Virus record (IMG/VR): IMGVR_UViG_3300027985_001053
Direction: 5' to 3' (one strand)
DNA length: 64,000 nt
Origin: a virus
Lineage: Duplodnaviria; Heunggongvirae; Uroviricota; Caudoviricetes
In this document: positions 12,055-29,165 of the stretch, piece by piece
Position numbering within the stretch: position 1 is the stretch's first letter
Layout of the letters: each line of letters opens with the position of its first letter
The notes under the pieces: model-generated
Told to the model about the DNA's origin: nothing
The model's input: the letters and a program-made list of their open reading frames with translations, nothing else
Databases searched by the model: none
Translations under genes and position numbers: made by a program

Positions 12055-12064
12055 AACGTAGATA

Positions 12065-14870: not shown

Positions 14871-14889
14871 GAAAACCCTCAAAATATAT

Positions 14890-15345: not shown

Positions 15346-15457
15346 GGCGTATGAGCGTAAGCTCTAAGTATCGAAATTTCGTTCTGGTTTCCAGCCTTCG
15401 ATAAGTCAAAAGGACTTTCCCTTGGGGCGGTGTTGCGTATATAGGGATGGGGGGGGG

Positions 15458-15790: not shown

Positions 15791-15888
15791 TAACATTTTA
15801 TAGATATCAAAAAAATACCCCATCGCTCAAAATCGAGCTATAAAGCCACGTTATGTGAAAGTTATACATTTATATTACTTTTATATAT

Positions 15889-15932
15889 AAATCATTTCTA
15901 ATAGCTCGATTATAAGCTATTAGAAATGATTT
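15889..15932. promoter_or_regulatory. perfect 18-bp inverted repeat in the AT-rich region
   Basis: aaatcatttctaatagct-cgattata-agctattagaaatgattt. Confidence 0.6.
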
Positions 15933-16219
15933 TTGATTTATGAGTTACTACTCTATAACTATCTTTTTATATGCTTTATCAAATAAAAACCGTATAGGGA
16001 ATTTTCCTATACAAAATGAGTAAAATTCCCTATATATTTTTTAAATTTTTAGTTCTATTATTAACACATAGGGACGGGACGCACACATATATACAAGCAG
16101 TAAAAAAGCTTGTATATATATATAAATATATATATGTGCTTAAAAACTTTTAAAAAGTTTTAAAAAATGTTGGCAACTACTAAAAATGTTGTTAATATTA
16201 AAGAGTAGAGGAGTTAACG

Positions 16220-16411
16220 ATGGACGTGTTAGCAAAAGATGTTTGTTTTATAGAAAATGGGTTTGGCGATGGTATGCTCTATAATAAAGATGGATCTGCA
16301 TGTTGGCAACTGCCGGCGTGTATAAAAAAAGAGGATATCATTCAAGGTTTCCCTCACTACATCATTAAGAGAGAAGCCTTGGACAAAAACGAGATTAGAA
16401 AATGGTTCTAA
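16220..16411 (+). CDS. hypothetical protein
   Basis: 63 aa ORF. Confidence 0.35.
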   Translation: MDVLAKDVCFIENGFGDGMLYNKDGSACWQLPACIKKEDIIQGFPHYIIKREALDKNEIRKWF

Positions 16412-16432
16412 TCTAGAAAAAAGGAGAATAAT

Positions 16433-16630: not shown

Positions 16631-16666
16631 AAGTATATTGACACAAATTAATATACTCGATAATAT
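16631..16666 (+). promoter_or_regulatory. promoter family B copy 1: TTGACA, 17-bp spacer, TAATAT, with palindrome caagtatat/atatactcg
   Basis: sigma70-like spacing; same cassette at 18450 and 19216. Confidence 0.6.
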
Positions 16667-16742: not shown

Positions 16743-17234
16743 ATGGAATTTACTTTAGAAGAAATCAATGAAATTATGGATAGAAATAATGGGGATCTAA
16801 TCCTCAAGGATACACTTATCAAAACATTACCAGAAGGGTTAAAGGTTCAAGGAAACTTGGATCTGACAGATACCGACATTCAAGAGTTACCAAACGGGTT
16901 AATAGTTGGAAAAAACTTAAACTTGTACTTTACAAAGGTAACGTCGTTACCTGAAAATTTAAAAGTTGGTGGATGGGTAGAGCTACAAGGGACTAAGATA
17001 GAGACGTTACCAAAAGGTTTAGAAGTAGGCTTATCCCTAGATGCAAGCTATACACCAATGACAACACTACCAAGAGATTTAAAAATTGGTGGTTACCTTA
17101 GTCTGAGAGGGACTAAGGTAATAACATTACCAAAAGGGTTAACCGTAGGAACCGTTTTAGATATAACGAATACAAAAGTTAAGTCTTTACCTAAAGACTT
17201 AAAAGTAGGAGGTAAAATCTACAGCGATCTATAA
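16743..17234 (+). CDS. LRR-family protein, short form (7 repeats, no C-terminal domain)
   Basis: MEFTLEEINEIM leader, then 20-residue repeats LxLxxTxIxxLPxxLxVGGx. Confidence 0.6.
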   Translation: MEFTLEEINEIMDRNNGDLILKDTLIKTLPEGLKVQGNLDLTDTDIQELPNGLIVGKNLNLYFTKVTSLPENLKVGGWVELQGTKIETLPKGLEVGLSLDASYTPMTTLPRDLKIGGYLSLRGTKVITLPKGLTVGTVLDITNTKVKSLPKDLKVGGKIYSDL

Positions 17235-17237
17235 GAT
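17232..17237 (+). promoter_or_regulatory. TAAGAT -10-like box preceding minihelix copy 2
   Basis: same spacing to the minihelix as in copy 1; weak -35. Confidence 0.3.
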
Positions 17238-17244
17238 TAATACA

Positions 17245-17290
17245 AGCTTGTAATGGTTTTATATAGTGGTTCAATTCCACTAGCAAGCTA
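17245..17290 (+). ncRNA. tRNA-like minihelix leader, copy 2 (agcttgt/gcaagct with a U-G pair; T-arm tagtgg-TTCAATT-ccacta)
   Basis: compensatory change in the T-stem relative to copy 1. Confidence 0.5.
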
Positions 17291-17314
17291 TAAACCAAAA
17301 TTTAGGAGTTTAAT

Positions 17315-17857
17315 ATGGAATTCGAATTTGTAATGGGATCTACAATCCATAATACAATTATTATTGCAGAAATAAATATCAGAAATCATTTTTCAATATC
17401 TTTTAATGAGGTTCTTCCGTTTGAAATGACAGAAGAAAGAGATCTAGAACAAAAAGAAAGCTTTCTTGAAAATTTTGAAGAAGAAGAAAGACAAGAAATA
17501 GAGGAACAGATCTATTATCTTGGTTATGAAGGATATTTTGATATATCTTTATATTCAAATAATTTTAATTTTCCAGAACTGGAAAATGATATCTATTTTG
17601 AATCTATAGGGTGTGGTCAGGGGGATCATAGAAAAGATCTTATATACTCTATTAACTCTATTGATAAAAATACAGATACAAAAGATATCAATACAAAGAT
17701 CTTTGACCTCTGGGATAGATTACATTTAAAGGAAATGGAGAGTTTATCAGAATCTGATAAACAAGAAATTAATAACTTAATTGAAAAAATCAAAACGTTT
17801 GATCTAGATGATCAAATGGAAATATTAGCAAGAAAATTGCTAATAGAGGATAAATAA
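17315..17857 (+). CDS. hypothetical acidic protein
   Basis: 180 aa ORF downstream of minihelix 2. Confidence 0.45.
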   Translation: MEFEFVMGSTIHNTIIIAEINIRNHFSISFNEVLPFEMTEERDLEQKESFLENFEEEERQEIEEQIYYLGYEGYFDISLYSNNFNFPELENDIYFESIGCGQGDHRKDLIYSINSIDKNTDTKDINTKIFDLWDRLHLKEMESLSESDKQEINNLIEKIKTFDLDDQMEILARKLLIEDK

Positions 17858-17858
17858 C

Positions 17859-18437
17859 ATGAAACCATATGATAGTATAAAAACGATGTATAAGTCAAAA
17901 AGTCTTATACATCGTAAAAAAGTTTGTTTAAACAATGATGTTGTTATTGTAACAACAGACGAGCAAGCTAATAAGTTAAGTCCATTGACTTTATATTCTT
18001 GGATAGGACGCCTAAACGTTAATCTAAGAATGTACAATAGCAGTAGTCAATTCGGTGATATGGTTTTTTCAAACAAAGAAGACGCTGTTATTGAAAAAAT
18101 CAGAGAATTGAAGTTTATACAAAAAAATGTTAATGACTGTATTAATGACTTAAAAGAAGAAATTTCTACTATACGACGTATTAGATCTATAGCTAAAAAG
18201 CTATATACTTTCTCTATGGAAAATTCATATTTAAGCAAACGAGATCTAGATCTTATTATATCTAGATATGAATTAAACTTAACCTTAAATGAGTTTAAAA
18301 ACTTAAGCTTAATTATGGGAATTCAATTTAAGAGTAATAATCTTGTTTCTATATGGTTAGGAAAAAAATCAAAACTTAAGATTGAAACAATTATTAAAAT
18401 AATAGAAAAATTGAGATATCAAATAAAAATAAATTAA
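17859..18437 (+). CDS. hypothetical protein
   Basis: 192 aa ORF. Confidence 0.45.
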   Translation: MKPYDSIKTMYKSKSLIHRKKVCLNNDVVIVTTDEQANKLSPLTLYSWIGRLNVNLRMYNSSSQFGDMVFSNKEDAVIEKIRELKFIQKNVNDCINDLKEEISTIRRIRSIAKKLYTFSMENSYLSKRDLDLIISRYELNLTLNEFKNLSLIMGIQFKSNNLVSIWLGKKSKLKIETIIKIIEKLRYQIKIN

Positions 18438-18449
18438 ATTATCTTTATC

Positions 18450-18485
18450 AAGTATATTGACAAAAATTAATATACTTGATAATAT
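18450..18485 (+). promoter_or_regulatory. promoter family B copy 2 (TTGACA 18457..18462, TAATAT 18480..18485)
   Basis: palindrome caagtatat/atatacttg flanks the -35 box and spacer. Confidence 0.6.
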
Positions 18486-18516
18486 GTAGAAAGATAAAAA
18501 CTTGAGGAGTTTGAAG

Positions 18517-19203
18517 ATGAATAATTTTGACATGAACAGTAAAGGAATAAATATCATAGCTAATATTTTTTATGATGAATGTCTTTCGCAAGACAACTTT
18601 GACCGAAATTGTAAACTTATAGATAAAAACAAAGATTTTTTTATATACACTGATTATGGTAACTTAAGCAGTGATTTCTATATATCTTTGAAAGAAGAGT
18701 CCAGAACAGATCTCGAAGATGTTATAGAACAAGAACAAATTTATTGCGGATGCTCTATAGATGAGCTTGATATTCAAGAGCTTCAAGCTCTTATAGAAAA
18801 TGAGTTATCATATATAGATTTATTTTTTATCTGTAAAAAATATCATCTTGAGATTGAACAAAATTATGAGTTATTAACGATTCGAGGATTCTCTCAAGGT
18901 GACATCTTAAAAATATTTGTAAATATTGAAGAGTTTGAAAAGGTGACAGGAGCTGTTTTTAACGATATCAAAGAATCTTTAAAAGAAGATTTAATTAATT
19001 ATTGTTATAAAACACCATTAACTGCACGAATAACAATAAACGACCAAGAGATCTATTTGGACGGAATTGACGGCAATTATATTTATTATGATGCAGATAC
19101 TAAAAAACAAATTATAGAAATTTGTTTAAAAAGTGTATCAGATATTGATCAAGATCTTTTAAAAGAAGAACTTGAGGAATTATTACCAGAAGAAATAAAT
19201 TAA
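18517..19203 (+). CDS. hypothetical acidic protein
   Basis: ATG at 18517 preceded by gaggag; ORF-track start 18502 is a TTG inside the RBS. Confidence 0.45.
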   Translation: MNNFDMNSKGINIIANIFYDECLSQDNFDRNCKLIDKNKDFFIYTDYGNLSSDFYISLKEESRTDLEDVIEQEQIYCGCSIDELDIQELQALIENELSYIDLFFICKKYHLEIEQNYELLTIRGFSQGDILKIFVNIEEFEKVTGAVFNDIKESLKEDLINYCYKTPLTARITINDQEIYLDGIDGNYIYYDADTKKQIIEICLKSVSDIDQDLLKEELEELLPEEIN

Positions 19204-19215
19204 ACTAATTTTATC

Positions 19216-19251
19216 AAGTATATTGACAAAAATTAATATACTTGATAATAT
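19216..19251 (+). promoter_or_regulatory. promoter family B copy 3 (TTGACA 19223..19228, TAATAT 19246..19251)
   Basis: identical cassette. Confidence 0.6.
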
Positions 19252-19282
19252 TTAGAAAGATAAAAACTTGAGGAGTTTAAAA

Positions 19283-19579
19283 ATGATAAAAATGATAGTC
19301 CAAGACACGTATACAAAGAGAGATATAAACGGAAACGTTTATCACGCAATTACAATTATCAACCTTGAAAATAGAGAATCCTTTACTACTAGTTCTCCCA
19401 ACTTAAGTAATGTTACCAGTATTTTGCAGAAAGCTGGTTTCGATTATAGTCAGATTTACACAATTGAAACTTGTACAGGATCGGCAAGGCATAGCTCTTT
19501 ACCAAAAAGTATATACCTTGATCCTTGCAGGTATACGGAAGAATGGAAAAAACAATTAATAGGAATTAATTGTTTATAG
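19283..19579 (+). CDS. hypothetical protein
   Basis: ATG at 19283 with gaggag RBS. Confidence 0.45.
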   Translation: MIKMIVQDTYTKRDINGNVYHAITIINLENRESFTTSSPNLSNVTSILQKAGFDYSQIYTIETCTGSARHSSLPKSIYLDPCRYTEEWKKQLIGINCL

Positions 19580-19582
19580 GAT

Positions 19583-19612
19583 GTTAAGAGGTATTCATAA
19601 ACCTCTTAATAT
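19583..19612 (+). terminator. hairpin aagaggt-attcataa-acctctt followed by aatattt
   Basis: inverted repeat after the stop of the 19283 gene. Confidence 0.4.
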
Positions 19613-19644
19613 TTAAAATTAAGATGACGACAAAAGAGGATAAT

Positions 19645-20484
19645 ATGGAATATACTTTAGAAGAACTGAATAAAATGATGGATGGAAACTATGGAAACTT
19701 AGATTTAAACTTCAATGATACTAAAGAAATATCATTACCGATATCGTTACCTAAAGGGTTAACTGCTCGAGGATGGTTAGATTTAGCTCATACGGAAATT
19801 GAATCATTACCTGAAGGGTTAACGGTTAGGGGTACCTTATATTTAAGATATACCCCAATTATAGAATTACCAGAAGGGTTAACTGTAGGAAGAACCTTAG
19901 ATTTAGAAGGTACTCCAATTAAATCTTTACCAAAAGGGTTAACCGTAGGAGGAGACTTAAATTTAAAATATACTAAAATTAAATCACTACCAAGAGATTT
20001 AAAAGTTGGTGGAAAAATCTACAGTGATTTACCTAAAAATGAACTAAATTACACAAAACTTCAACAAGGTGAGTATGTTGAAAATTCATACCTATATGCC
20101 GATGAAATATTCACTCTTGTTAAATCTAAAAAGTCTTTTGATAAATACACATATTTTATTGGAGAGTTTAAAGGTCAAAACGTACTTTATGATGGTACTT
20201 ATTACGCACATTGTGAAAACATCAAGAAAGGACTTAGGGATCTTAACTTCAAACATTCTCAAGATAGAAGAATTGAACAATACAAAAATTTAAAATTAAC
20301 AAGTAATCTATCTTTTGATGAATCAAAAACGATGTACAGAATTTTAACTGGAGCATGTAGGCAAGGTACTGAAAGTTTCATTAGTAACTTAAAAACAATA
20401 AAAGATCAGTATACAATACAGGAATTAATAGATCTAACTGTTAATCAATATGGGCATGAAGTTTTTAAGAAGTTTTTTAAATAA
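19645..20484 (+). CDS. LRR-family protein (5-6 repeats plus conserved C-terminal domain)
   Basis: MEYTLEELNKMM leader; RBS agaggataat identical to other family members; ORF-track start 19624 includes the RBS. Confidence 0.6.
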   Translation: MEYTLEELNKMMDGNYGNLDLNFNDTKEISLPISLPKGLTARGWLDLAHTEIESLPEGLTVRGTLYLRYTPIIELPEGLTVGRTLDLEGTPIKSLPKGLTVGGDLNLKYTKIKSLPRDLKVGGKIYSDLPKNELNYTKLQQGEYVENSYLYADEIFTLVKSKKSFDKYTYFIGEFKGQNVLYDGTYYAHCENIKKGLRDLNFKHSQDRRIEQYKNLKLTSNLSFDESKTMYRILTGACRQGTESFISNLKTIKDQYTIQELIDLTVNQYGHEVFKKFFK

Positions 20485-20498
20485 AAAGTTGTACTTTT

Positions 20499-20539
20499 CA
20501 CTTGTTTATGTTGACTAAAATATAAATAAGTGATAAGAT
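20499..20539 (+). promoter_or_regulatory. promoter family A copy 1 (TTGACT 20511..20516, 17 bp, TAAGAT 20534..20539) inside palindrome cacttgtttat/ataaataagtg
   Basis: five copies in total. Confidence 0.6.
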
Positions 20540-20546
20540 TATTATA

Positions 20547-20592
20547 AGCTTATAATGGTTTTATATAGTAGTTCGATGCTACTAACAAGGTA
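20547..20592 (+). ncRNA. tRNA-like minihelix leader, copy 3 (T-arm intact, acceptor 3' strand degenerate)
   Basis: tagtag-TTCGATG-ctacta; 5' strand agcttat lies within palindrome tataagcttata. Confidence 0.35.
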
Positions 20593-20603
20593 AGGAGATT
20601 TTT

Positions 20604-20924
20604 ATGATTATGGCATTTAAAAGATATCTAGAAATAAATGATTTTACGCTTATAGATTGTATTGCTTTAGAAAATAGCACCTATCAAATTTCTTATTATG
20701 ATAATAAGAGCAAGGCAATAAAAACAAAACTTGTACCAAAATATAAAAAGTCTTATACGCTAAGATATGTTAATAGAAATGAAGTTTTTTATGTAGATTT
20801 TAGTCCTATGACTTCAAAGGAAGCTAAAATTATTAAAAATAATTCTCTGTTTTATCCTAACCGAACAATAGATATTGTTCCATATGGTTTTTATCTTGAG
20901 TGGAAAAATGGGCAATTGCTATAA
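20604..20924 (+). CDS. hypothetical protein
   Basis: 106 aa; RBS aaggagat. Confidence 0.45.
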   Translation: MIMAFKRYLEINDFTLIDCIALENSTYQISYYDNKSKAIKTKLVPKYKKSYTLRYVNRNEVFYVDFSPMTSKEAKIIKNNSLFYPNRTIDIVPYGFYLEWKNGQLL

Positions 20925-20938
20925 AATAGCATATAACA

Positions 20939-20984
20939 AGCTTGTAATGGTTTTATATAGTAGTTCGATTCTACTAGCAAGCTA
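20939..20984 (+). ncRNA. tRNA-like minihelix leader, copy 4 (agcttgt/gcaagct; tagtag-TTCGATT-ctacta)
   Basis: same architecture, followed by RBS agaggag and an ATG. Confidence 0.5.
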
Positions 20985-21008
20985 TAAATCAAAATAGAGG
21001 AGTTAAAT

Positions 21009-21239
21009 ATGTTTACAAAAAGAAATAGAATTTCCAGTATCGAGAAAAAGTTAAATATCCGAACGGAATTAAAACTTAAAGATTATAGTGATAGTTTAAA
21101 TTCTACTTTTAAAGTATTTAGACTAATCGATGAGTATCCTACAAATACGACAGGAATCTATAAATCAACTGGTCAGAAATATGAATATGATGGTATTTTT
21201 ACTAAGCAACAATTGATTGACGAATGCAACAAACTATAA
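21009..21239 (+). CDS. hypothetical protein
   Basis: 76 aa ORF. Confidence 0.4.
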   Translation: MFTKRNRISSIEKKLNIRTELKLKDYSDSLNSTFKVFRLIDEYPTNTTGIYKSTGQKYEYDGIFTKQQLIDECNKL

Positions 21240-21264
21240 ATCAGATTTTTAGGAGTGATGAAAA

Positions 21265-21690
21265 ATGGATTATGAAACTTTAATAAATAACAAGATCGAA
21301 CAGCATAAAAAATTAAAACAAGAAAAAAAGGATAAAAGGACTTCTCAAGAAATAAGACTTGAGGAAGTAGCTAATCAAATTGAAAAGTTTTATGAAGCTA
21401 TAGACAAAAGTAACTTAAGATTTAACAAAAATAACTCTATAGAGAGTGTAACCTTTAAACAGCTATTTCATAAAAACAATATGCTACTCCGTAGATCTAC
21501 AGGTACCGAAATTAAGTTTAAAACACCTATTTTAAGATACGAACATCTTACACTAATGTTAAATAGCAATCTAGACTTGATATTTGTATTAAGTTCTATG
21601 TATGCTTCGAGTACACCAAATAAAATATTTAGAAATATTGACGATTTAATTGGTTTTATGACTACTAAAATTATTGATATGAGCATATAG
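21265..21690 (+). CDS. hypothetical protein
   Basis: 141 aa ORF. Confidence 0.4.
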   Translation: MDYETLINNKIEQHKKLKQEKKDKRTSQEIRLEEVANQIEKFYEAIDKSNLRFNKNNSIESVTFKQLFHKNNMLLRRSTGTEIKFKTPILRYEHLTLMLNSNLDLIFVLSSMYASSTPNKIFRNIDDLIGFMTTKIIDMSI

Positions 21691-21705
21691 AAAAAGGAGT
21701 TTAAG

Positions 21706-21999
21706 ATGAATATAGAACTAATTGTAAATAATGAACCATGTTGGTTACATGATGTAAGATTTAATGCAGAAGCGTTAAATGATTATTTAACATATGATGG
21801 TGATAATTACCATATATCAGAAACTGATTTTAATTGGTGGTCGGAATATAACAATAAATATAATAATGCCGATGATAAATTAAAAGAGCTGTTTGAGAAA
21901 AATGAAGAGTTAAAAGAGGAATTCTTCCATTTTATCATAGAGAAAGATTTTAATGATTACCCTGAGCAAATTCTTTATTTTATAGAGTTGAATAAATAA
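21706..21999 (+). CDS. hypothetical acidic protein
   Basis: 97 aa; RBS aaggag. Confidence 0.4.
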   Translation: MNIELIVNNEPCWLHDVRFNAEALNDYLTYDGDNYHISETDFNWWSEYNNKYNNADDKLKELFEKNEELKEEFFHFIIEKDFNDYPEQILYFIELNK

Positions 22000-22025
22000 G
22001 GTTTTTAGTTAAAATGTGTACTTTT

Positions 22026-22066
22026 CACTTATTTATGTTGACTAAAATATAAATAATTGGTAAGAT
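22026..22066 (+). promoter_or_regulatory. promoter family A copy 2 (TTGACT 22038..22043, TAAGAT 22061..22066)
   Basis: conserved cassette; right palindrome arm partly degenerate. Confidence 0.55.
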
Positions 22067-22096
22067 TATTACAAGATAAAGACAAGAGAGGATGTT

Positions 22097-22858
22097 ATGG
22101 AATATACTTTAGAAGAACTAAATAAAATGATGGAAGAGAATGATGGAAACTTAAGTTTATATAATACTCCGATTAAATCATTACCAGAAGGGTTAAAGGT
22201 TGGAGGTTGGTTAGATTTAAGAAATACCCCAATTAAATCGTTACCAGAAGGATTAACAGTTGGAGGATATTTAGATTTAGAAAATACTGAAATTGAATCT
22301 TTACCAGAAGGATTAACCGTTGGAGGATATTTAGCTTTAAGGTATGCTCCAATTACAACGCTACCAGAAGATTTAAAAGTTGGAGGTACCATATTTAGGG
22401 ATTTACCTGAAAATGAACTCAATTATACAAAACTTAAACAAGGTGATTATGTTAAAGATGAATATCTATATGCCGATGAAATCTTAACTCACATTAAAGC
22501 TAAAAAATCTTTTGATAAGTACACATATTTTATTGGTAAATTTAAAGATAAAAACGTACTTTATGATGGAACTTATTATGCTCACTGTAAAAACATCAAA
22601 CAAGGAATTAAGGATCTTAGCTTCAAACATGCTAAAGATAGAAGAATTGAACAATACAGAAATCTCAAGCTAACAAGTATTCTATCTTTTGAAGAATCAA
22701 AAACAATGTATCGAGTTTTAACTGGAGCATGTAGGCAAGGAACTGAAAGCTTTATTAGTAACTTAAAAACAATAAAAGATCAGTATACAGTACAGGAATT
22801 ACTAGATCTAACTGTTAATCAATATGGGCATGAAACTTTTAAGAAGTTTTTTAGTTAA
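22097..22858 (+). CDS. LRR-family protein (4 repeats plus C-terminal domain)
   Basis: MEYTLEELNKMM leader; C-terminal YTYFIGKFKDKNVLYDGTYYAHCKNIKQG...TGACRQGTESF. Confidence 0.6.
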   Translation: MEYTLEELNKMMEENDGNLSLYNTPIKSLPEGLKVGGWLDLRNTPIKSLPEGLTVGGYLDLENTEIESLPEGLTVGGYLALRYAPITTLPEDLKVGGTIFRDLPENELNYTKLKQGDYVKDEYLYADEILTHIKAKKSFDKYTYFIGKFKDKNVLYDGTYYAHCKNIKQGIKDLSFKHAKDRRIEQYRNLKLTSILSFEESKTMYRVLTGACRQGTESFISNLKTIKDQYTVQELLDLTVNQYGHETFKKFFS

Positions 22859-22872
22859 AAAGTTGTACTTTT

Positions 22873-22913
22873 CACGTATCTATGTTGACTAAAATATAGA
22901 TACGTGATAATAT
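22873..22913 (+). promoter_or_regulatory. promoter family A copy 3 (TTGACT 22885..22890, TAATAT 22908..22913); palindrome arms cacgtatctat/atagatacgtg
   Basis: both palindrome arms differ from other copies by matching changes. Confidence 0.6.
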
Positions 22914-22943
22914 TATTACAAGATAAAGAAAAGAGAGGATAAT

Positions 22944-23558
22944 ATGGAATATACTTTAGATGTGTTGAATAAAATGATGGAAGAGAATGATGGAGACTTA
23001 GATTTAAAACATACTGGGATTGAATCGTTACCAGAAGGGTTAACAGTTGGAGGATATTTAGATTTAAGCTATACTTCAATTACATCATTACCTAATGGGT
23101 TAACTGTTGGAGGATGGTTAGATTTAAGAAATACTCAAATTACAACACTACCAGAAGGGTTAACGGTTGGAGGTAGCGTATATTTAAGATATACTCAAAT
23201 TACATCGTTACCTAAAGGATTAACGGTTGGAGGAACCTTAGATTTAGAAGGTACTACAATTACATCGTTACCAAAAGGATTAACCGTTGAAGGAAGCTTA
23301 TATTTAGACTATTCTCGAATAACTTCATTACCAGAAGGGTTAACTGTTGGAGGTTGGTTAGATTTAAGTTATGCTCCAATTGAATCGTTACCAGAAGGGT
23401 TAACTGTTGGAGAAATCTTATATTTAGAAGGTACTAAAATAACATCGTTACCACAAGATTTAAAAGTTGGTGATAAAATCTACGGAGATTTACCAAAGAA
23501 GGAACTACACTGCACAAAACTCCAACAGGACGATTATATTGCATTTGAATACCTATAA
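22944..23558 (+). CDS. LRR-family protein (8 repeats), C-terminal domain deleted
   Basis: ends ...YIAFEYL*; the following 23559..23600 encodes a remnant LAPVKSKKFFS* of the family C-terminus. Confidence 0.55.
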   Translation: MEYTLDVLNKMMEENDGDLDLKHTGIESLPEGLTVGGYLDLSYTSITSLPNGLTVGGWLDLRNTQITTLPEGLTVGGSVYLRYTQITSLPKGLTVGGTLDLEGTTITSLPKGLTVEGSLYLDYSRITSLPEGLTVGGWLDLSYAPIESLPEGLTVGEILYLEGTKITSLPQDLKVGDKIYGDLPKKELHCTKLQQDDYIAFEYL

Positions 23559-23619
23559 GCGGAAGGAATCTTAGCTCCTGTTAAATCTAAGAAGTTTTTT
23601 AGTTAAAATGTGTACTTTT

Positions 23620-23660
23620 CACTTATTTATGTTGACTAAAATATAAATAAGTGATAAGAT
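23620..23660 (+). promoter_or_regulatory. promoter family A copy 4 (TTGACT 23632..23637, TAAGAT 23655..23660)
   Basis: palindrome cacttatttat/ataaataagtg. Confidence 0.6.
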
Positions 23661-23690
23661 TATTACAAGATAAAGAAAAGAGAGGATAAT

Positions 23691-24008
23691 ATGAAAAGTT
23701 TTAGAGAAATGAGTCCTAAGGAATGGAGTGAAGCAGTAGAGAAACTAGCTAGTGATTTATCAAATACAGACTTAAATGTATTCCGAGAAAGTACATTGAG
23801 AAGAATGTATGCTGATATGTATGGTGTAGATGATGATATAGAAAGAGCTTATTCCATAGAGGATATAAAGAACTGTTTATATGACGAGGATATTACTGAT
23901 GAACAAGCTGATAAAATATCCATCTGGCTAGAGACTAAAGGAGATAGTACTCTTACATTTTGGGAGAATATAACGAATGCTTATGATACATTAAAGGAGG
24001 AGTTCTAA
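23691..24008 (+). CDS. hypothetical acidic protein
   Basis: 105 aa, same 5'UTR as the LRR genes. Confidence 0.45.
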   Translation: MKSFREMSPKEWSEAVEKLASDLSNTDLNVFRESTLRRMYADMYGVDDDIERAYSIEDIKNCLYDEDITDEQADKISIWLETKGDSTLTFWENITNAYDTLKEEF

Positions 24009-24565
24009 TGGTATACATACTTTACAGCAATAAAATAAAATATCTGCATAGTCTGGAAGGAAAAGAGATTAACAAAAGTGATTTAGAATCTCTAGGTACT
24101 ACTTACATGCCAATAACTGATTTTACTGAGTTGTTTAATAATGATTATGATGCTATTAAAAGCATGAATCGTAACGGTCACATAACATATATTAACGTAA
24201 AAGAAAATAAGTCTGATACTCATAATGAAGTATTATATAAAGAAATAACAGCAAGCCGTCAAATATACTTAATAGACAATACTTATTTTGTATATAATCA
24301 TGAGTTTACATATTTCAATGTAGCTTTAGATGAAAAGAGTTGTTTGAACAGTAGTAATAGTTTAGGGTCTTTTGATACTGAAGAACTTGCTATGGAGTTT
24401 ATAGATAAACTTCAATCAGAAAATAAGTCTGATACTCCAGAAATCGTAAAAGACTTAAATACGATAAAAGAGTTTGTTTTAAGATTTGATACTCCTGATG
24501 ATTTAGATTTAGAAGTATCAAAATTACTAGATAAATATATTGCTAAATATTCGAGAGGAGAATAG
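24008..24565 (+). CDS. hypothetical protein
   Basis: 185 aa; start overlaps the previous stop. Confidence 0.45.
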   Translation: MVYILYSNKIKYLHSLEGKEINKSDLESLGTTYMPITDFTELFNNDYDAIKSMNRNGHITYINVKENKSDTHNEVLYKEITASRQIYLIDNTYFVYNHEFTYFNVALDEKSCLNSSNSLGSFDTEELAMEFIDKLQSENKSDTPEIVKDLNTIKEFVLRFDTPDDLDLEVSKLLDKYIAKYSRGE

Positions 24566-24566
24566 A

Positions 24567-24950
24567 ATGAGACATAGCATAAAAAATGAAATCGTGGCTG
24601 GTTTTAAAACAGCTTTATTATGGATACACCAAGAAGATTTTGAAGATATCGATACTTTTTCAGATTCTGCTGAATTGTTTATTGATAACTTAGTAAAGGA
24701 TTTTATCAAAGAGACTAATCTCTTTGACCTAATGGGAGCTTTTACACCTTTAAACGATGAATACTCTATAGGGGAACTTATAGGACATGATTTGTTTTTA
24801 TCGGTGGGAGGATTTGGAGCTGGTTTCTTGAGTAAACCTAATATCTATAATGGTTTCGAAAATAATCTTGATAACTTTGTAGAAAAAAAGGTTACATGGA
24901 TAAACGATATTTTCATAAATGATGAAAGTCATGTTATAGAGATAGAGTAA
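24567..24950 (+). CDS. hypothetical protein
   Basis: ATG at 24567 with gagaggag RBS (ORF-track start 24540 lacks one). Confidence 0.4.
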   Translation: MRHSIKNEIVAGFKTALLWIHQEDFEDIDTFSDSAELFIDNLVKDFIKETNLFDLMGAFTPLNDEYSIGELIGHDLFLSVGGFGAGFLSKPNIYNGFENNLDNFVEKKVTWINDIFINDESHVIEIE

Positions 24951-25037
24951 TAAATGTTGGTACTTTTTACTAGGGAAAAAGTAGTAGTTTTTAGATAAGA
25001 GTAGTAAATATTACAGTTTTAAGAGAGGATAAAGAAG

Positions 25038-25664
25038 ATGTTTAAAGAAAATGATTTAGTAAAATCTAAAGTAAGTAGTGAAATCTATACAGTTCAAAAG
25101 GTTTCAGATTATGTTGTACTAAGTAATGGTGGTAGATACTTAGAGGAAGAGCTTAGAGAAGCTACTAAAGAGGATCTATACCAAGAGTTGGAATCTAAAG
25201 TAAGAGTTTGGGTTAATAGAGAGTTTAACAGTATTCCTTTAAGATTAGTGGAAGCTCTGGTAGAAAATGAAGGACAGAATTTATCAGAGTTTATACATCC
25301 TTTAGACTGTTTAGACATTAAAGAATCTATTGAAAATATATCTTCCCAGCTTGAGGATGATGATTTTTCAGAAGAGGATAGAGAGTATTTAGAAGAGGAG
25401 TTGCAAACTCTTAATGAAAAGTTAGATAGCTTAAACGATGACAATTATCCTTTACATGGTACATTGTTTGAGTTGAACTCTACAGATGAAGATATTATAG
25501 AAGCAGCTAAGAAAATAGGACTAGGAGTTATATCTGGGAATGATTACTTTAACTCTATGTTATTTATGACAGAAACTGGAAGCAACTTCTATAGAAAGTT
25601 TTGGATACCTTTATTCTTGGAGCTATATCCTGATACTAGGTATGATGGTATAGAGATAGGTTAA
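25038..25664 (+). CDS. hypothetical highly acidic protein
   Basis: 208 aa, D/E-rich. Confidence 0.45.
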   Translation: MFKENDLVKSKVSSEIYTVQKVSDYVVLSNGGRYLEEELREATKEDLYQELESKVRVWVNREFNSIPLRLVEALVENEGQNLSEFIHPLDCLDIKESIENISSQLEDDDFSEEDREYLEEELQTLNEKLDSLNDDNYPLHGTLFELNSTDEDIIEAAKKIGLGVISGNDYFNSMLFMTETGSNFYRKFWIPLFLELYPDTRYDGIEIG

Positions 25665-25738
25665 AGAGAGTGTTATTATATCCTTCTACCGTTGGTGGAA
25701 GGTAGTATTACTAATATGAGTTATGGAGATAAATAGAT

Positions 25739-25957
25739 ATGGAAAATATACTAATTAAAGATGTGGTATTACTGAATACTGTAATAGATTTTACAATGGC
25801 ATTAAACAATGTATCTGTAAAGGATTTAAAAGATATGGAGCTATCTAAGGCTGTTGATTATGTTATAGGGTTAATTCCTGAAACTAAGAAAGATGAAATG
25901 GATATTGATAATTTGCATGAAGTAGTTGAATACTGCTTGATAAACAAATTAAGCTAA
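25739..25957 (+). CDS. hypothetical protein
   Basis: 72 aa ORF. Confidence 0.35.
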   Translation: MENILIKDVVLLNTVIDFTMALNNVSVKDLKDMELSKAVDYVIGLIPETKKDEMDIDNLHEVVEYCLINKLS

Positions 25958-26161
25958 TAGAATTATGGTTAAAGTAGGCTTTAATGTTTATTTTAACCAA
26001 TCAAAACTTTTCCTAGAGCGTAGACTGTACTTTTTACCTCTAGGAGTTGACTAAAAATCATTTTACTGTTTATTTTATAATTTATTTAATTGGTAAATTT
26101 CACCAATTGACTGGCGAGATTTACCAATCGAAAAAATTAAATAAAAATCATAGCTTTTTGA

Positions 26162-26190
26162 TTGACACAACAGTATATGTATGTTAATAT
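26162..26190 (+). promoter_or_regulatory. sigma70-like promoter TTGACA, 17 bp, TAATAT
   Basis: gattgacacaacagtatatgtatgttaatatt; inverted repeat ttggtaaat/atttaccaa upstream at 26088..26140. Confidence 0.5.
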
Positions 26191-26213
26191 TATTACATAA
26201 AGGAGATAATCAG

Positions 26214-26690
26214 ATGGATTTAAGAGCAATAGATACTTTAGTACTACCAATGACAGATAAGAGATATTTAGTATGTTCTTTTGATGGTAATGAGTTATCA
26301 TCTCTAAAGGATATATGTGATATGGAGACTAATACCTTGGATAAGGCTTTAAAACTTTGTGGAATATTATCTGAGAAGTATGAGGTATGTTTTGTATATG
26401 ATATATTACATGGAAGGGTATCGTATACAGGAGTGACAACACCTTCTGGATGTTTTGTTAAGAAGATACAGTATGATTTGATAGAGTCTTATTTTAGAAA
26501 TATTTATCATATAGAGGATCTTTATAGAGTAGGTTTTATAGGAGCTAAGGATATGCTTATAGATACTTTTCCTAAAGATACTTTATTTACGATGGTACCA
26601 GGTTTAAGTGTTGTTGTAGCGTATACTAGAGAGTTTAATGTAATATATGATAAGTTTGTTACTACTTATCAAGTAATAGGGACTATTTAA
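26214..26690 (+). CDS. hypothetical protein
   Basis: ATG at 26214 with aaggagata RBS. Confidence 0.45.
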   Translation: MDLRAIDTLVLPMTDKRYLVCSFDGNELSSLKDICDMETNTLDKALKLCGILSEKYEVCFVYDILHGRVSYTGVTTPSGCFVKKIQYDLIESYFRNIYHIEDLYRVGFIGAKDMLIDTFPKDTLFTMVPGLSVVVAYTREFNVIYDKFVTTYQVIGTI

Positions 26691-26695
26691 AGTCT

Positions 26696-26965
26696 TTGCT
26701 TTATGCTATGGTGGAGGTAAATACTATGCTAACAGGATATAGAAGATTTAAAACGATTGTTGATTTACTTAAGAGACAATCGGAGGCTTATACTAAGATT
26801 CATAGTGTGAATGCTTGGGTATATGATTATGGAACTTCTGAAGAGATTAAAGAGCATAATAAAGTAATTAGAGAAGGCTCTGAGGAATTAAGAGTTGTTG
26901 AGGAAGAACTTAAAGCTTTAGATGTTACCTTTGAAGAAGTAACACATGCTTATAGATGTTACTAG
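26696..26965 (+). CDS. hypothetical protein
   Basis: 89 aa ORF. Confidence 0.4.
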   Translation: MLYAMVEVNTMLTGYRRFKTIVDLLKRQSEAYTKIHSVNAWVYDYGTSEEIKEHNKVIREGSEELRVVEEELKALDVTFEEVTHAYRCY

Positions 26966-27067
26966 TCTAACTTTAAGATGTGTATTAGTGGTTTTAAAGT
27001 ATTTAATGCTTTAGAGTTTAATAAGAGTATATCTAAGTATACTACATTATATAGAGGAGTTGTTATA

Positions 27068-27309
27068 TGAAGAAAATAACACAATTAGCAAATAATCAAT
27101 TAACTTATACAGATGGAGATAAAAGAGTATTTCAAAGCTATAATACTATTATTGCAGTAATTGAGAATGGTAAAACATTCTTAGACGAAACCTCGTGAAA
27201 TTATTCAAAGACTACAGCCAAGTGGAGAAATATCTTTTTAAATATGACTACTGAGGAGACAAAGAAAGCTATCAAAGAAGGTGATACCACTCTTAAGGAT
27301 CTTAATTAG
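27068..27309 (+). pseudogene. small ORF interrupted by an in-frame TGA at 27196..27198
   Basis: MKKITQLANNQLTYTDGDKRVFQSYNTIIAVIENGKTFLDETS*NYSKTTAKWRNIFLNMTTEETKKAIKEGDTTLKDLN; RBS ggaggagt upstream. Confidence 0.35.
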
Positions 27310-27372
27310 CTAATGCAGAAATCAACCTACGATTACTTTTTAAGAAGTTTTTAATTAAAAAGTCGTAATTAT

Positions 27373-27413
27373 CACTTATTTATGTTGACTAAAGCATAAA
27401 TAAGAGATAATAT
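27373..27413 (+). promoter_or_regulatory. promoter family A copy 5 (TTGACT 27385..27390, TAATAT 27408..27413)
   Basis: conserved cassette with palindrome. Confidence 0.6.
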
Positions 27414-27443
27414 TATTACAAGATAAAGAAAAGAGAGGATACT

Positions 27444-29165
27444 ATGGAATATACTTTAGAAGAATTAAATAGAATGATGAAAGATAATGATGGAAACTTA
27501 GATTTAAGACATACTAAAATTACATCACTGCCTAAAGGATTAACAGTTGGAGGTAACTTATATTTAAGAAATACTCAAATTACCTCGTTACCAGGAGATT
27601 TAATTGTTGGAGGAGACTTAGATTTAAGTTATACTCCAATCACATCGTTACCAGGAGATTTAATTGTTGGAGGAGACTTAGATTTAAGTTATACTCCAAT
27701 CACATCGTTACCAGACGATTTAATTGTTGGAGGAGACTTAGATTTAAGTTATACTCCAATCACATCGTTACCAGACGATTTAATTGTTGGAGGTAGCTTA
27801 TATTTAAGCAATACTCAAATTAAATTATTACCAAAAGGATTGAAGGTTGGAGGTGGGGTAGATTTAAGATATGCTCCGATTAAATCATTACCAGAAGACT
27901 TATCTGTTGGAAGTAGCTTAGATTTAAGTCGTACTCAAATTAAATCATTACCAGAAGGGTTAAAGGTTGGAGGTTGGTTAGATTTAAGATATGCTCCAAT
28001 TAAATCGTTACCAGAAGAGTTAATGGTGAAAGGTAGTTTATATTTAGAAAATACTCAAGTTACCTCGTTACCAGAAGGGTTCATGGTTAGAGGTAGCTTA
28101 TATTTAAGTCATACTCAAATCACATCGTTACCAAAAGGGTTAACGGTTGGAGGAGACATAGATTTAAGATATGCTCCAATTACATCGTTACCAGAAGGGT
28201 TAACCGTTGGTGGTAATTTAGACTTAGAAGGTACTAAAATTACCTCGTTACCAGAAGGGTTAACTGTTGGAGGTTGGCTAGATTTAAGTCATACTCAAAT
28301 CACATCGTTACCAAAAGGGTTAACGGTTGGAGGAGACATAGATTTAAGCGTTACTCCGATTACAACACTACCAGAAAGGTTAACGGTTGGAAGAAATCTA
28401 GATTTTAGATATACTAAAATTACCTCGTTACCAGAAGGGTTAACTGTTGGAGGTTGGCTAGATTTAAGAAATACTCAAATTACATCATTGCCTAAAAGGT
28501 TAACTGTTGGAGGATATTTAGATTTAAGTTCTACTCAAATTACATCGTTACCTGAAGGATTAACCGTTGGAGGTAACTTATATTTAGAAGGTACTAAAAT
28601 CACATCGTTACCGAAAGGGTTAACGGTTGGAGGATATTTAGCTTTAAGTAATACTCCAATTAAATCGTTATCAATAGATTTAAAAGTTGGAGGTACCATA
28701 TTTAGCGATTTACCTAAAAATAAAGTCAAATATACAAAACTTCAACAAGGTGACTATAGTGAAGCTGACTATCTGTATGCAGATGGAATCTTAACTCATA
28801 TTAAAGCTAAAAAATATTTTGATAAATATACATATTTTATTGGAGAATTTAAAGATAAAAATGTACTTTATGATGGAACTTATTATGTTCACTGTAAAAA
28901 CATTAAGCAAGGAATTGAGGATCTTAACTTCAAACATGCTAAAGATAGAGGGTCTGATCACTACAAAAATCTAAAATTATCCAGTATTCTATCTTTTGAA
29001 GAATCTAAAACGATGTACAGGATTTTAACCGGTGCGTGTAGACAAGGTACTGAAAGTTTTATTGAAAATTTGAAAATAATAAAAGAACAGTATACCATCC
29101 AAGAATTAATAGATCTAACTGTTAATCAATACGGTTATGAAACTTTTAAGAAGTTTTTTAGTTAA
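27444..29165 (+). CDS. LRR-family protein, long form (20 consecutive 20-residue repeats plus C-terminal domain)
   Basis: repeat consensus LDLxxTxITSLPEGLTVGGx; C-terminal domain shared with the 19645 and 22097 genes. Confidence 0.65.
   Translation: MEYTLEELNRMMKDNDGNLDLRHTKITSLPKGLTVGGNLYLRNTQITSLPGDLIVGGDLDLSYTPITSLPGDLIVGGDLDLSYTPITSLPDDLIVGGDLDLSYTPITSLPDDLIVGGSLYLSNTQIKLLPKGLKVGGGVDLRYAPIKSLPEDLSVGSSLDLSRTQIKSLPEGLKVGGWLDLRYAPIKSLPEELMVKGSLYLENTQVTSLPEGFMVRGSLYLSHTQITSLPKGLTVGGDIDLRYAPITSLPEGLTVGGNLDLEGTKITSLPEGLTVGGWLDLSHTQITSLPKGLTVGGDIDLSVTPITTLPERLTVGRNLDFRYTKITSLPEGLTVGGWLDLRNTQITSLPKRLTVGGYLDLSSTQITSLPEGLTVGGNLYLEGTKITSLPKGLTVGGYLALSNTPIKSLSIDLKVGGTIFSDLPKNKVKYTKLQQGDYSEADYLYADGILTHIKAKKYFDKYTYFIGEFKDKNVLYDGTYYVHCKNIKQGIEDLNFKHAKDRGSDHYKNLKLSSILSFEESKTMYRILTGACRQGTESFIENLKIIKEQYTIQELIDLTVNQYGYETFKKFFS
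27591..27770 (+). repeat. three perfect or near-perfect tandem 60-bp DNA repeats inside the LRR gene
   Basis: ccaggagatttaattgttggaggagacttagatttaagttatactccaatcacatcgtta, three copies. Confidence 0.85.

What the first reader, a model, noticed from the sequence alone, without database searches (positions are those of the whole stretch)
16743..29165. Multigene family of phage-encoded leucine-rich-repeat proteins with variable repeat number
Five paralogs (16743, 19645, 22097, 22944, 27444) share a near-identical N-terminus MEYTLEELNKMMEENDGNLDL. This is followed by 4 to 20 tandem 20-residue units with LRR core LxLxxTxIxxLP (consensus LDLRNTPIKSLPEGLTVGGW). Three paralogs (19645, 22097, 27444) also share an uncharacterised C-terminal domain of about 150 aa (KIYSDLPKNELNYTKLQQG...YTYFIGEFK..YDGTYYAHC.NIK...TGACRQGTESF...). 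Copy number, repeat number and domain loss all vary, which suggests rapid diversification. LRR proteins with 20-residue repeats are typical of secreted bacterial effectors (YopM/IpaH type) and are not standard phage cargo. A role as injected or anti-defence proteins or as host-interaction determinants is plausible. I do not recognise the C-terminal domain.
Basis: seen in the sequence. Interest (0 to 1): 0.85.

Follow-up and report, generated by a model that had tools for sequence, protein, structure and literature searches.

The report
Phage early LRR proteins, unknown C-domain
A large phage carries five copies here (probably eight in the genome) of a widespread but unstudied phage protein: a variable-length leucine-rich-repeat binding rod fused to a conserved 150-residue domain with no known relative, most likely made early in infection to act on host proteins.

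Summary
Five + strand paralogs have an exact 20-residue repeat period, with 4, 5, 7, 8 and 20 repeats. Three carry an intact ~149-aa C-terminal domain (C-dom). One (22944) has lost it through a stop codon plus a deletion. One (16743) ends exactly at the domain boundary.

The repeats form a genuine LRR solenoid. They match the solved Vibrio flagellar LRR protein FlrP (E 4.8e-40), and the AlphaFold2 model (pLDDT 92) resembles FlrP, SspH1, IpaH and YopM. The shared "leader" is the solenoid's N-terminal capping helix, not a secretion signal.

In 141 prophage and viral loci the gene is usually single-copy. It lies downstream of the integrase and repressor, upstream of and co-oriented with the SSB, RecT, YqaJ and DnaB genes. 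Here the paralogs sit among small ORFans, three behind a repeated sigma-70-type promoter module.

Best reading (inferred, not shown): an early cytoplasmic host-directed protein in which a hypervariable LRR selects the target and a conserved C-dom acts as effector. The function is untested.

The parts
16743..17234 (+). Paralog A: N-cap helix plus 7 LRR units and a terminal half-unit. It stops at the LRR/C-dom boundary (KIYSDL*), so it is an LRR-only protein. It is the most divergent copy.
   Evidence: Its nearest database relatives are small 134-221-aa LRR-only proteins. A TTGACA-17-TAATAT site lies at 16638-16666.
19645..20484 (+). Paralog B: N-cap, 5 LRR units (the first is irregular) and an intact C-dom (residues 131-279). 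The ORF could also start at 19624.
   Evidence: It corresponds to P0008 (279 aa, 69% identical to paralog C).
22097..22858 (+). Paralog C: N-cap (helix 5-14), 4 LRR units and an intact C-dom (residues 105-253). This is the protein that was modelled.
   Evidence: AlphaFold2 pLDDT 92.4, pTM 0.77. Identical to P0003.
22944..23645 (+). Paralog D: the ORF 22944-23558 (204 aa) has 8 LRR units. C-dom is destroyed: a stop codon replaces the Tyr of YADGIL, and most of the domain is deleted, leaving the remnant AEGILAPVKSKKFFS* up to about 23645.
27444..29165 (+). Paralog E: N-cap, 20 LRR units (a 60-nt tandem array at 27495-28695) and an intact C-dom (residues 425-573). Units 3-5 are near-identical, which indicates recent duplication.
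   Evidence: Pfam LRR_4, LRR_1 and LRR_8 score above threshold.
21995..22096 (+). Intergenic promoter module upstream of C: TTGACT-17-TAAGAT with TG, then a Shine-Dalgarno sequence. It is one of five copies that are 88-93% identical.
22840..22943 (+). The same module between C and D. It contains the palindrome 22872-22907 centred on the -35 hexamer.
27338..27445 (+). The same module upstream of E. It begins with a decayed 'FKKF' C-dom 3' end.
20467..20548 (+). The same module immediately after the stop of B. Here it precedes the unrelated ORF 20604-20924.
23588..23692 (+). The same module after the D remnant. Here it precedes the unrelated ORF 23691-24008.

Best explanation
These are paralogs of a widespread two-module phage protein family that acts early, inside the infected bacterium.

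Module 1 is a cytoplasmic leucine-rich-repeat solenoid. It has an N-terminal capping helix and 4-20 units of 20 residues with the core LxLxxTxIxxLPxxLxVGG. Its length and four exposed positions per unit vary freely, and it serves as the target-recognition surface.

Module 2 is a conserved, basic C-terminal domain of about 149 residues with an unassigned fold. It carries a constellation of conserved polar residues (D, H, D, K, R, Y, Y, R, T, C, E, T). It is the constant effector part: most likely an enzyme or ligand/nucleic-acid-binding site that acts on whatever the LRR holds.

The logic resembles the IpaH/SspH family (variable LRR, constant C-terminal catalytic domain, several paralogs per genome), but the target is the bacterial host rather than a eukaryote.

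Each copy is probably transcribed by host RNA polymerase from its own sigma-70-type promoter at the start of infection. The expansion to 5 copies here (8 in the genome), with different LRR lengths and surfaces, would let one phage address several host targets or variants, such as defence or takeover targets.

Shown:
- the anatomy of the genes and repeats;
- the predicted solenoid;
- the distribution of the family;
- the early-operon position;
- the pattern of selection.

Inferred:
- the time of expression;
- the cytoplasmic location;
- target binding by the LRR;
- any activity of C-dom;
- the host-directed role.
For: Solenoid:
- The repeats match the solved LRR of FlrP (8z5u) at E 4.8e-40 (paper 10.64898/2025.12.04.692373).
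- The AlphaFold2 model has pLDDT 92.4, with one short strand per 20 residues and an N-terminal helix at 5-14.
- The best Foldseek matches are FlrP, SspH1, IpaH and YopM LRRs.

Binding surface:
- Across 39 repeat units, positions 8, 12, 13 and 15, which flank the LxL strand, have 2.3-2.9 bits of entropy.
- Seven of the eight framework positions (L3, V5, L11, T14, I16, L19, P20) fall in <=4 residue types, and L9 likewise (0-0.72 bits); pN exceeds pS at positions 12, 13 and 15.

Constant module:
- C-dom dN/dS is 0.17-0.28 between paralogs.
- There are 1175 clusters at 50% identity (E<=1e-3), and in the 150 best hits listed the domain lies at or near the C-terminus in all but two.
- Twelve polar residues are conserved at 82-98% over 127 representatives.
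- Nine representatives have lost 5-8 of these residues together, as expected if they form one functional site.
- C-dom is basic (pI 8.8-9.1), whereas the LRR is mildly acidic.
- C-dom is also found behind other solenoid repeat types, which shows it is the invariant partner.

Early and intracellular:
- In 141 loci the gene lies downstream of the integrase and the S24/XRE repressor. It lies upstream of, and co-oriented with, SSB (63 loci), RecT, YqaJ, DnaB and DNA methylase genes.
- The arrangement is the same in the isolated phages Edno5 and TJE1.
- In the window the paralogs sit in a + strand block of small ORFans, opposite the structural genes.
- C, D and E each follow a conserved TTGACT-17-TAAGAT/TAATAT module, and A follows TTGACA-17-TAATAT.
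- No hydrophobic signal peptide is visible: the N-terminus is an acidic helix.
Against: - I could not obtain model coordinates, so I did not test whether the conserved D, H and C residues lie together.
- The 'YAHC' cysteine is Gly in distant members. Only the 'TGAC' cysteine is general, at 91%.
- Promoter matches in a 30% G+C region are no more frequent than in shuffled sequence. Only the conservation of the module supports them, and the time of expression is not measured.
- Two of the five copies (A and D) lack C-dom yet keep open LRR ORFs. This would also fit a binder-only mode of action.
- The host is unknown, so no target can be proposed.
Confidence: 0.45

Rival explanations
1. Binder-only inhibitors or decoys. 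The LRR solenoid itself is the active part and stoichiometrically masks a host protein such as a defence sensor or nuclease. C-dom would be only a stabilising, oligomerising or localising (for example nucleic-acid-binding) module with no catalysis.
For: - Paralogs A and D keep intact LRR ORFs without C-dom.
- Small LRR-only proteins with the same repeat type are common.
- Edno5_0047 has the same LRR with an unrelated 70-aa tail.
- The solved relative FlrP is a pure binder.
- C-dom is basic.
Against: - C-dom is far more conserved than the LRR and carries 12 conserved polar residues that are lost together in a minority of members. This is more typical of an active or ligand site than of a scaffold.
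- C-dom persists behind quite different repeat types.
Confidence: 0.25
2. Phage- or prophage-encoded defence or superinfection-exclusion proteins. The LRR senses a protein of a competing phage, as LRR and TPR sensors do in NLR-like/Avs systems. C-dom would be a toxic effector.
For: - The architecture of a variable repeat sensor plus a conserved effector domain is typical of immune sensors.
- Prophages carry many defence genes near their repressor and integrase (established knowledge).
- The hypervariable LRR surface fits an arms race.
Against: - There is no PADLOC match and no NTPase or oligomerisation module.
- The gene is co-oriented with, and upstream of, the lytic replication and recombination genes rather than in the lysogeny-expressed int/cI side.
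- Eight copies occur in a large, apparently lytic myophage.
Confidence: 0.1
3. Virion-associated host-recognition proteins. C-dom anchors the protein to the particle and the variable LRR binds the cell surface, as proposed for the DUF7941 paralogs with LRR/beta-helix domains of phage Goslar.
For: - 'Conserved anchor plus variable binding domain, in several paralogs' is the usual design of receptor-binding proteins.
- LRR/beta-helix domains are proposed in the Goslar fibre cloud (10.64898/2026.04.21.720040).
Against: - In 141 loci the gene lies in the early replication/recombination operon, not among tail genes.
- In the window it lies on the opposite strand from the sheath and capsid genes, among ORFans.
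- Proteins as short as about 180-250 aa with no trimerisation module.
- There is no PHROG tail annotation.
Confidence: 0.07
4. Lysogenic-conversion effectors of the YopM/IpaH type, secreted by the bacterium into a eukaryotic host.
For: - The LRR is structurally closest to FlrP, then SspH1, IpaH and YopM.
- There are weak NCBIfam hits to XopAC and SspH2 LRRs.
- The speculation appears in PMC6372524.
Against: - There is no NEL domain. C-dom matches neither Pfam nor PDB.
- Scores for the effector families are far below their cut-offs: 37.6 against 450 and 26.9 against 1243.
- There is no secretion signal.
- Carriers are mostly gut Clostridia, Bacteroidota and environmental MAGs, not organisms known for type III secretion (established knowledge).
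- The gene sits in the early-operon position.
Confidence: 0.03

Closest known systems
FlrP, the LRR protein bound to the rod of the Vibrio polar flagellar motor (PDB 8Z5U/8Z5W/8Z60)
   Same: It has the same 20-residue repeat family (LPxGLxVxGxLxLxxTxIxx), with phmmer E 4.8e-40 over three stretches. It is the best Foldseek match of the model, and a beta-solenoid is shown by cryo-EM.
   Different: FlrP has a Sec signal peptide and is periplasmic. It is LRR-only (199 aa), positively charged, and a structural spacer of the flagellar motor. The phage proteins have an acidic helical N-cap, no signal peptide, a mildly acidic LRR and, mostly, C-dom.
IpaH/SspH (NEL) and YopM type III effectors
   Same: They share the 20-residue 'bacterial' LRR class with a helical N-cap. 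In IpaH/SspH a variable LRR precedes a conserved C-terminal domain, with several paralogs per genome that differ mainly in the LRR. They are structural neighbours in Foldseek.
   Different: There is no NEL domain or CxD motif. C-dom is about 149 aa, mixed beta/alpha, and unrelated by sequence or fold. The LRR core has Thr where these effectors have Asn. There is no type III context, and the gene lies in phage early operons.
Edwardsiella phage Edno5 gene 47, published as a putative 'LRR ligase'
   Same: It has the same LRR type (55% identity over 90 residues) and the same position between the cI repressor and the exo/recT genes.
   Different: Its 70-aa C-terminal tail is unrelated to C-dom (hhalign probability 0.1). 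The published function is speculation from LRR similarity only (PMC6372524).
DUF7941 paralog family of chimalliviruses (Goslar gp86, gp92, gp161)
   Same: It is a phage multigene family in which a conserved module is joined to variable LRR/beta-helix or carbohydrate-binding domains.
   Different: There the conserved module is N-terminal, the proteins are found in virions and the family is restricted to chimalliviruses. Here the conserved module is C-terminal and the genes are in early or accessory regions.

Membership tests
Leucine-rich repeat superfamily (bacterial 20-residue class) | Tandem units of 20-29 residues with the core LxxLxLxx(N/C/T)xL | tested here: met
   The period is exactly 20 residues. 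The core is LxLxxTxIxxLP, with Thr (33 of 39 units) at the Asn position. Pfam LRR_1, LRR_4 and LRR_8 score above threshold for paralogs D and E.
Leucine-rich repeat superfamily (bacterial 20-residue class) | Solenoid fold with one short beta strand per repeat and a capping element | tested here: met
   This rests on prediction only. The AlphaFold2 model has pLDDT 92.4, a strand every 20 residues and an N-terminal helix at 5-14. Foldseek top hits are FlrP, SspH1, IpaH and YopM. Sequence homology to the solved FlrP solenoid is strong.
IpaH/SspH NEL E3 ubiquitin ligases | C-terminal NEL domain with a catalytic CxD cysteine | tested here: not met
   There is no NEL hit in Pfam or NCBIfam. The SspH2 model scores 26.9 bits against a cut-off of 1243, on the LRR only. 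C-dom has no PDB sequence or fold match.
IpaH/SspH/YopM type III effectors | Type III secretion and delivery into eukaryotic cells | not testable with these tools
   No secretion signal can be scored here. Carriers are mainly gut Clostridia MAGs and phages, which argues against it.
FlrP flagellar rod-associated LRR protein | Sec signal peptide and periplasmic location | tested here: not met
   The N-terminus MEYTLEELNKMMEENDGNL is acidic and predicted helical, with no hydrophobic segment. FlrP has a signal peptide at M1-A19.
FlrP flagellar rod-associated LRR protein | Same repeat family by sequence | tested here: met
   phmmer E 4.8e-40, with three overlapping stretches.
Phage tail fibre / receptor-binding protein | Gene located in the tail/baseplate module; match to tail-fibre families | tested here: not met
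   The gene lies in the early operon in 141 loci. In the window it is on the opposite strand from the sheath and capsid genes. The PHROG hits have unknown function.
Known anti-phage defence system proteins (PADLOC-DB) | Match to a defence-system protein model | tested here: not met
   No PADLOC family matches at E<=0.1 for C, E or Edno5_0047.
Known anti-defence protein families (Ocr, ArdA/B/C, Acr, Tad, Gad, Acb and others) | Sequence or fold similarity to a characterised anti-defence protein | tested here: inconclusive

The most novel reading that the evidence does not exclude
C-dom is a new enzyme fold, with a D/H/C-containing site. Phages would use it, steered by an exchangeable and rapidly evolving LRR (or other solenoid) adaptor, to modify or destroy chosen host proteins in the first minutes of infection. 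This would be a bacterial-cytoplasm counterpart of the IpaH-type 'variable LRR + constant catalytic domain' effectors. The eight-copy expansion in this phage would be an arsenal aimed at several host defence or takeover targets.
Probability: 0.25. Interest if true: 0.85.

Novelty: new variant of a known kind. Interest (0 to 1): 0.6.

Why it matters
If the reading is right, this is an abundant and so far unnamed class of phage early proteins, with more than a thousand sequence clusters across Bacillota, Bacteroidota, Proteobacteria, Actinomycetota and others. Its design is modular: a programmable binding rod plus a constant domain of unknown chemistry.

Such proteins are candidates for host-takeover or anti-defence functions, and for a new protein fold or activity. 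They could also supply natural LRR binders against bacterial proteins.

The eight-copy expansion in one phage offers a natural series for finding targets: same C-dom, different LRRs, plus two natural C-dom-less variants.

There is also a practical point. The 60-nt repeats break short-read assemblies at this gene, so the family and its repeat numbers are systematically under-represented and truncated in metagenomic catalogues.

Tried and rejected
- Close relatives of the phage. Megablast of 16-30 kb against 50,697 phage genomes found nothing. The tail sheath protein has only one weak hit. No related genome was available for a copy-number comparison.
- Exact-protein look-ups of P0001 and P0003 to place the three extra paralogs on the contig returned 'not on record'. 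Their location is therefore unknown, and I infer that they belong to the same contig only from the contig length.
- Function of C-dom by homology. Pfam was searched on single sequences and on all 25 alignment members at E<=10. PHROGs, NCBIfam, PADLOC and a PDB profile search were also tried. All were negative.
- Ideas considered and dropped for lack of support:
  - A protein tyrosine phosphatase P-loop. The motif CxxGTExF lacks the Arg, and the PTP Foldseek hits have probability <=0.1.
  - An H-Y-E ADP-ribosyltransferase. The strand order is wrong and there is no hit.
  - A DNA mimic. The LRR net charge is only -2 to -15.
  - A classical helix-turn-helix. The pattern fits poorly.
- Homology between the Edno5 C-terminal tail and C-dom, suggested by 'IAAGCFFGSxxxF' against 'ITGACxxGTxxF', was rejected by hhalign (probability 0.1).
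- Literature searches for phage LRR proteins found no functional study. They returned only the Edno5 speculation and the Goslar virion LRR domains.
- Host identification from the phage's chemotaxis receptor gave only matches of <=30% identity, mostly Spirochaetota. This is too weak to name a host.

Full report
**1. What is in the window**

The window comes from a phage. ORF 45286-47142 (-) matches the tail sheath family and 54172-55668 (-) matches the major head protein family. G+C content is about 30%. The window's own proteins are recorded on a JGI contig of 129,693 bp.

No isolated phage is related at the DNA level. The sheath protein has only one weak hit.

The structural genes lie on the - strand from about 33.5 kb onward. 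From about 14 to 31 kb there is a + strand block of small ORFs. Ten of these were scanned and none matched Pfam above its curated score cut-off. The five paralogs lie within this block.

**2.

| Paralog | Coordinates (+) | Length | LRR units | C-dom |
|---|---|---|---|---|
| A | 16743-17234 | 163 aa | 7 | absent |
| B | 19645-20484 | 279 aa | 5 | intact |
| C | 22097-22858 | 253 aa | 4 | intact |
| D | 22944-23558 | 204 aa | 8 | destroyed |
| E | 27444-29165 | 573 aa | 20 | intact |

- These are the only places in the window that match the family.
- Parsing at the LP anchors gives an exact 20-residue period with no indels. Each array ends in a half-unit KVGGxI(Y/F)xDLP.
- Tandem Repeats Finder reports 60-nt arrays with 74-79% matches. 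The array in E has recently duplicated units near its 5' end.
- B, C and E carry an intact 149-aa C-terminal domain (C-dom).
- D is a decayed copy. A stop codon replaces the Tyr of YADGIL. The following frame reads AEGILAPVKSKKFFS*, which means an internal deletion of most of C-dom.
- A ends exactly at the LRR/C-dom junction.
- Three more paralogs of 353-413 aa, with an estimated 8-11 repeats, are recorded on a contig of the same length. I infer at least eight copies in the genome. Their position could not be retrieved.

**3. The repeat region is a real LRR solenoid and the 'leader' is its cap**

- The repeats match the solved Vibrio LRR protein FlrP (PDB 8Z5U) at E 4.8e-40. FlrP is a beta-solenoid seen by cryo-EM on the flagellar rod.
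- An AlphaFold2 model of the 253-aa paralog, built from 61 homologues, has pLDDT 92.4. It shows a helix at residues 5-14 and one short strand per 20 residues.
- Its best PDB neighbours are FlrP, then the SspH1, IpaH and YopM LRRs.
- The motif MxxTLExLxxMMxxNGGxLDL is conserved across the whole family and coincides with the predicted capping helix. It is acidic and has no hydrophobic segment, so it is not a signal peptide.
- Over 39 repeat units the framework positions (L3, V5, L9, L11, T14, I16, L19, P20) are nearly fixed. Positions 8, 12, 13 and 15, which flank the LxL strand, carry 2.3-2.9 bits of entropy. pN exceeds pS at positions 12, 13 and 15. This is the usual signature of an LRR ligand-binding face.

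**4. The C-terminal domain is conserved, large as a family, and unassigned**

- Between paralogs its dN/dS is 0.17-0.28.
- It has no match in Pfam, including all 25 alignment members scanned at E<=10. It also has no match in PHROGs, NCBIfam, PADLOC or PDB sequences.
- A separate model (pLDDT 93) has six beta strands followed by six helices.
- A profile search of 1.84 billion representatives finds 1175 proteins (750 at E<=1e-10). In the 150 best hits listed the domain lies at or near the C-terminus in all but two.
- Over 127 near-full-length representatives, twelve polar residues are 82-98% conserved: D, H, D, K, R, Y, Y, R, T, C, E, T. They include the motifs YaDgIL, YAH and YRxITGACxxGTxxF.
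- The Cys of 'YAHC' is Gly in distant members. The 'TGAC' Cys is general and sits between two predicted helices.
- Deviations from these twelve residues are bimodal. Ninety-seven proteins have 0-1 changes, and nine have 5-8 changes at once. This suggests that the residues form one functional site which a minority of members has abandoned.
- C-dom is basic (pI about 9) and the LRR is mildly acidic.
- The N-terminal partner is not always the same repeat. BspA-like 23-residue LRRs, 18-21-residue 'VGGxLxI' units and 8-10-residue repeats also precede C-dom. C-dom is therefore the invariant module and the solenoid is the exchangeable one.

**5. Where the family lives**

- It is not unusual phage cargo. 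There are 490 close hits, many on contigs of about 40 kb.
- There are 207 IMG/VR matches, and the 80 loci kept all come from different contigs.
- There are 71 loci in species-representative genomes. Most are gut Clostridia MAGs. Others come from Bacteroidota, Alphaproteobacteria, Elusimicrobiota, Melainabacteria, Saccharibacteria and one archaeal MAG.
- Isolated phages of Tetrasphaera and Riemerella, and a lemur-gut virus (Dulem virus 31), match in C-dom; the Edwardsiella phage Edno5 matches in the LRR only.
- ORFs from 151 loci were clustered, and 141 of these loci have a member ORF that serves as the reference point. The conserved neighbourhood is as follows (with Pfam confirmation).

| Position relative to the family gene | Strand | Genes |
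|---|---|---|
| about -4 to -5 kb | opposite | tyrosine or serine recombinase |
| about -2 to -3 kb | mostly opposite | S24 or XRE repressor |
| +1 to +8 kb | same | SSB (63 loci), RecT, YqaJ exonuclease, DnaB helicase, N6/N4 DNA methylase |

  Further same-strand clusters were recognised by eye only: ERF-like, DnaD-like, RusA-like and VRR-NUC-like.
- Edno5 and TJE1 show the same arrangement.
- The family gene therefore sits at the head of the early lytic (recombination/replication) operon of temperate phages. It is almost always single-copy.

**6. Regulation in this phage**

- A module of about 100 nt occurs five times at 88-93% identity.
- The module comprises the last codons of C-dom, a palindrome centred on the -35 hexamer, TTGACT-17-TAAGAT/TAATAT with an upstream TG, and a Shine-Dalgarno sequence.
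- It precedes C, D and E. It also follows B and the D remnant, where it precedes unrelated ORFs.
- A has a separate TTGACA-17-TAATAT site.
- The generic promoter scan is not enriched over shuffles in this AT-rich region. The argument therefore rests on conservation of the module, not on the consensus match.
- The layout indicates spread by duplication of 'promoter + gene' units. It is compatible with transcription by host RNA polymerase, meaning early expression. That timing is inferred.

**7. Most likely mechanism**

The family is best read as an early, cytoplasmic, host-directed two-module protein. The LRR, with its variable length and hypervariable concave positions, selects a target. The conserved basic C-dom performs the constant step, either catalysis or ligand/nucleic-acid binding.

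The closest functional analogy is the IpaH/SspH design. Membership of that family is excluded because there is no NEL domain.

The expansion to eight copies with different LRRs, including two natural C-dom-less versions, would broaden the target range. I give this reading a confidence of 0.45.

Rival explanations:

| Rival | Confidence | Main point |
|---|---|---|
| Binder-only inhibitors | 0.25 | Favoured by A, D, Edno5_0047 and FlrP |
| Phage-borne defence sensors | 0.10 | No PADLOC hit; wrong operon side |
| Virion host-recognition proteins | 0.07 | By analogy with Goslar DUF7941 paralogs; contradicted by gene position |
| Eukaryote-directed effectors | 0.03 | The published speculation for Edno5 |

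**8. Novelty and score**

- LRR solenoids are well known, and this repeat type now has a solved representative.
- Sequences of this family are already in databases as 'hypothetical' or 'leucine-rich repeat protein'.
- Three things are new. First, C-dom defines a large, unnamed and structurally unassigned phage family. Second, the family has a fixed early-operon position. Third, one large phage has amplified it eight-fold with graded repeat numbers.
- No function is shown. I rate it a new variant of a known kind, with interest 0.6.

Noticed in passing
window 20467-20548, 21995-22096, 22840-22943, 23588-23692, 27338-27445 (+): A module of about 100 nt occurs five times at 88-93% identity. It has a palindrome (for example 22872-22907) centred on the -35 hexamer of a TTGACT-17-TAAGAT/TAATAT promoter. 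Two copies precede unrelated ORFs (20604-20924 and 23691-24008). The palindrome could be an operator or a terminator for the upstream gene.
   Followed up: partly
window 31751-33496 (-): The phage encodes a 581-aa methyl-accepting chemotaxis protein (PF00015). Its nearest named homologues, at <=30% identity, are mostly from Spirochaetota. This is unusual phage cargo and a weak hint to the host.
   Followed up: partly
window 1033-1644 (+), 11039-14202 (-), 31136-31576 (-), 33506-34369 (-): Other auxiliary genes are present: a Rha regulator, peptide deformylase, a radical SAM protein, RtcB RNA ligase, a nucleoside 2-deoxyribosyltransferase-like protein and thymidylate synthase.
   Followed up: no
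IMG/VR loci L075-L153 and many genome loci: In 49 of 80 viral loci the contig ends within about 600 nt upstream of C-dom, which is inside the 60-nt repeat array. Short-read assemblies apparently break at this gene. Many database members are therefore N-terminally truncated and repeat numbers are underestimated.
   Followed up: partly
L001:3938-4675 (+) = Tetrasphaera phage TJE1 HQ225832, about 39130-39867: There is an unannotated family member (GTG start, 3 repeats plus C-dom). It overlaps the annotated orf50 (- strand) and orf51, so the GenBank annotation there is probably wrong.
   Followed up: partly
P0253, P0199, P0243, P0267, P0133, P0215, P0202, P0227: C-dom also follows quite different N-terminal repeats: BspA-like 23-residue LRRs, 18-21-residue 'VGGxLxI' units, and 8-10-residue repeats such as GNSTAELW or KQASSGDYS.
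   Followed up: partly
L002:4803-5546 (+) = Edwardsiella phage Edno5 gene 47: This gene has the same LRR type and the same early-operon position, but an unrelated 70-aa C-terminal tail (hhalign probability 0.1). It was published as a putative 'LRR ligase' on LRR similarity alone.
   Followed up: yes
L032 (Ruminococcus sp. LCP21S3_E8): 6828-8435 and 14781-16423 (+): This cultured isolate has two LRR proteins with the family's N-cap motif on one contig; C-dom was detected in the first (6828-8435), while the second ORF runs to the end of the locus. By eye only, they lie near genes that look like a beta-clamp and an ArdC-type protein. It is a possible experimental system.
   Followed up: no
P0269-P0374: Paralog A's nearest relatives are a separate set of small (134-221 aa) LRR-only proteins. 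They have the same repeat type but different N- and C-terminal flanks (for example ...REMIKPGFIKG...), and some are on contigs above 100 kb.
   Followed up: no
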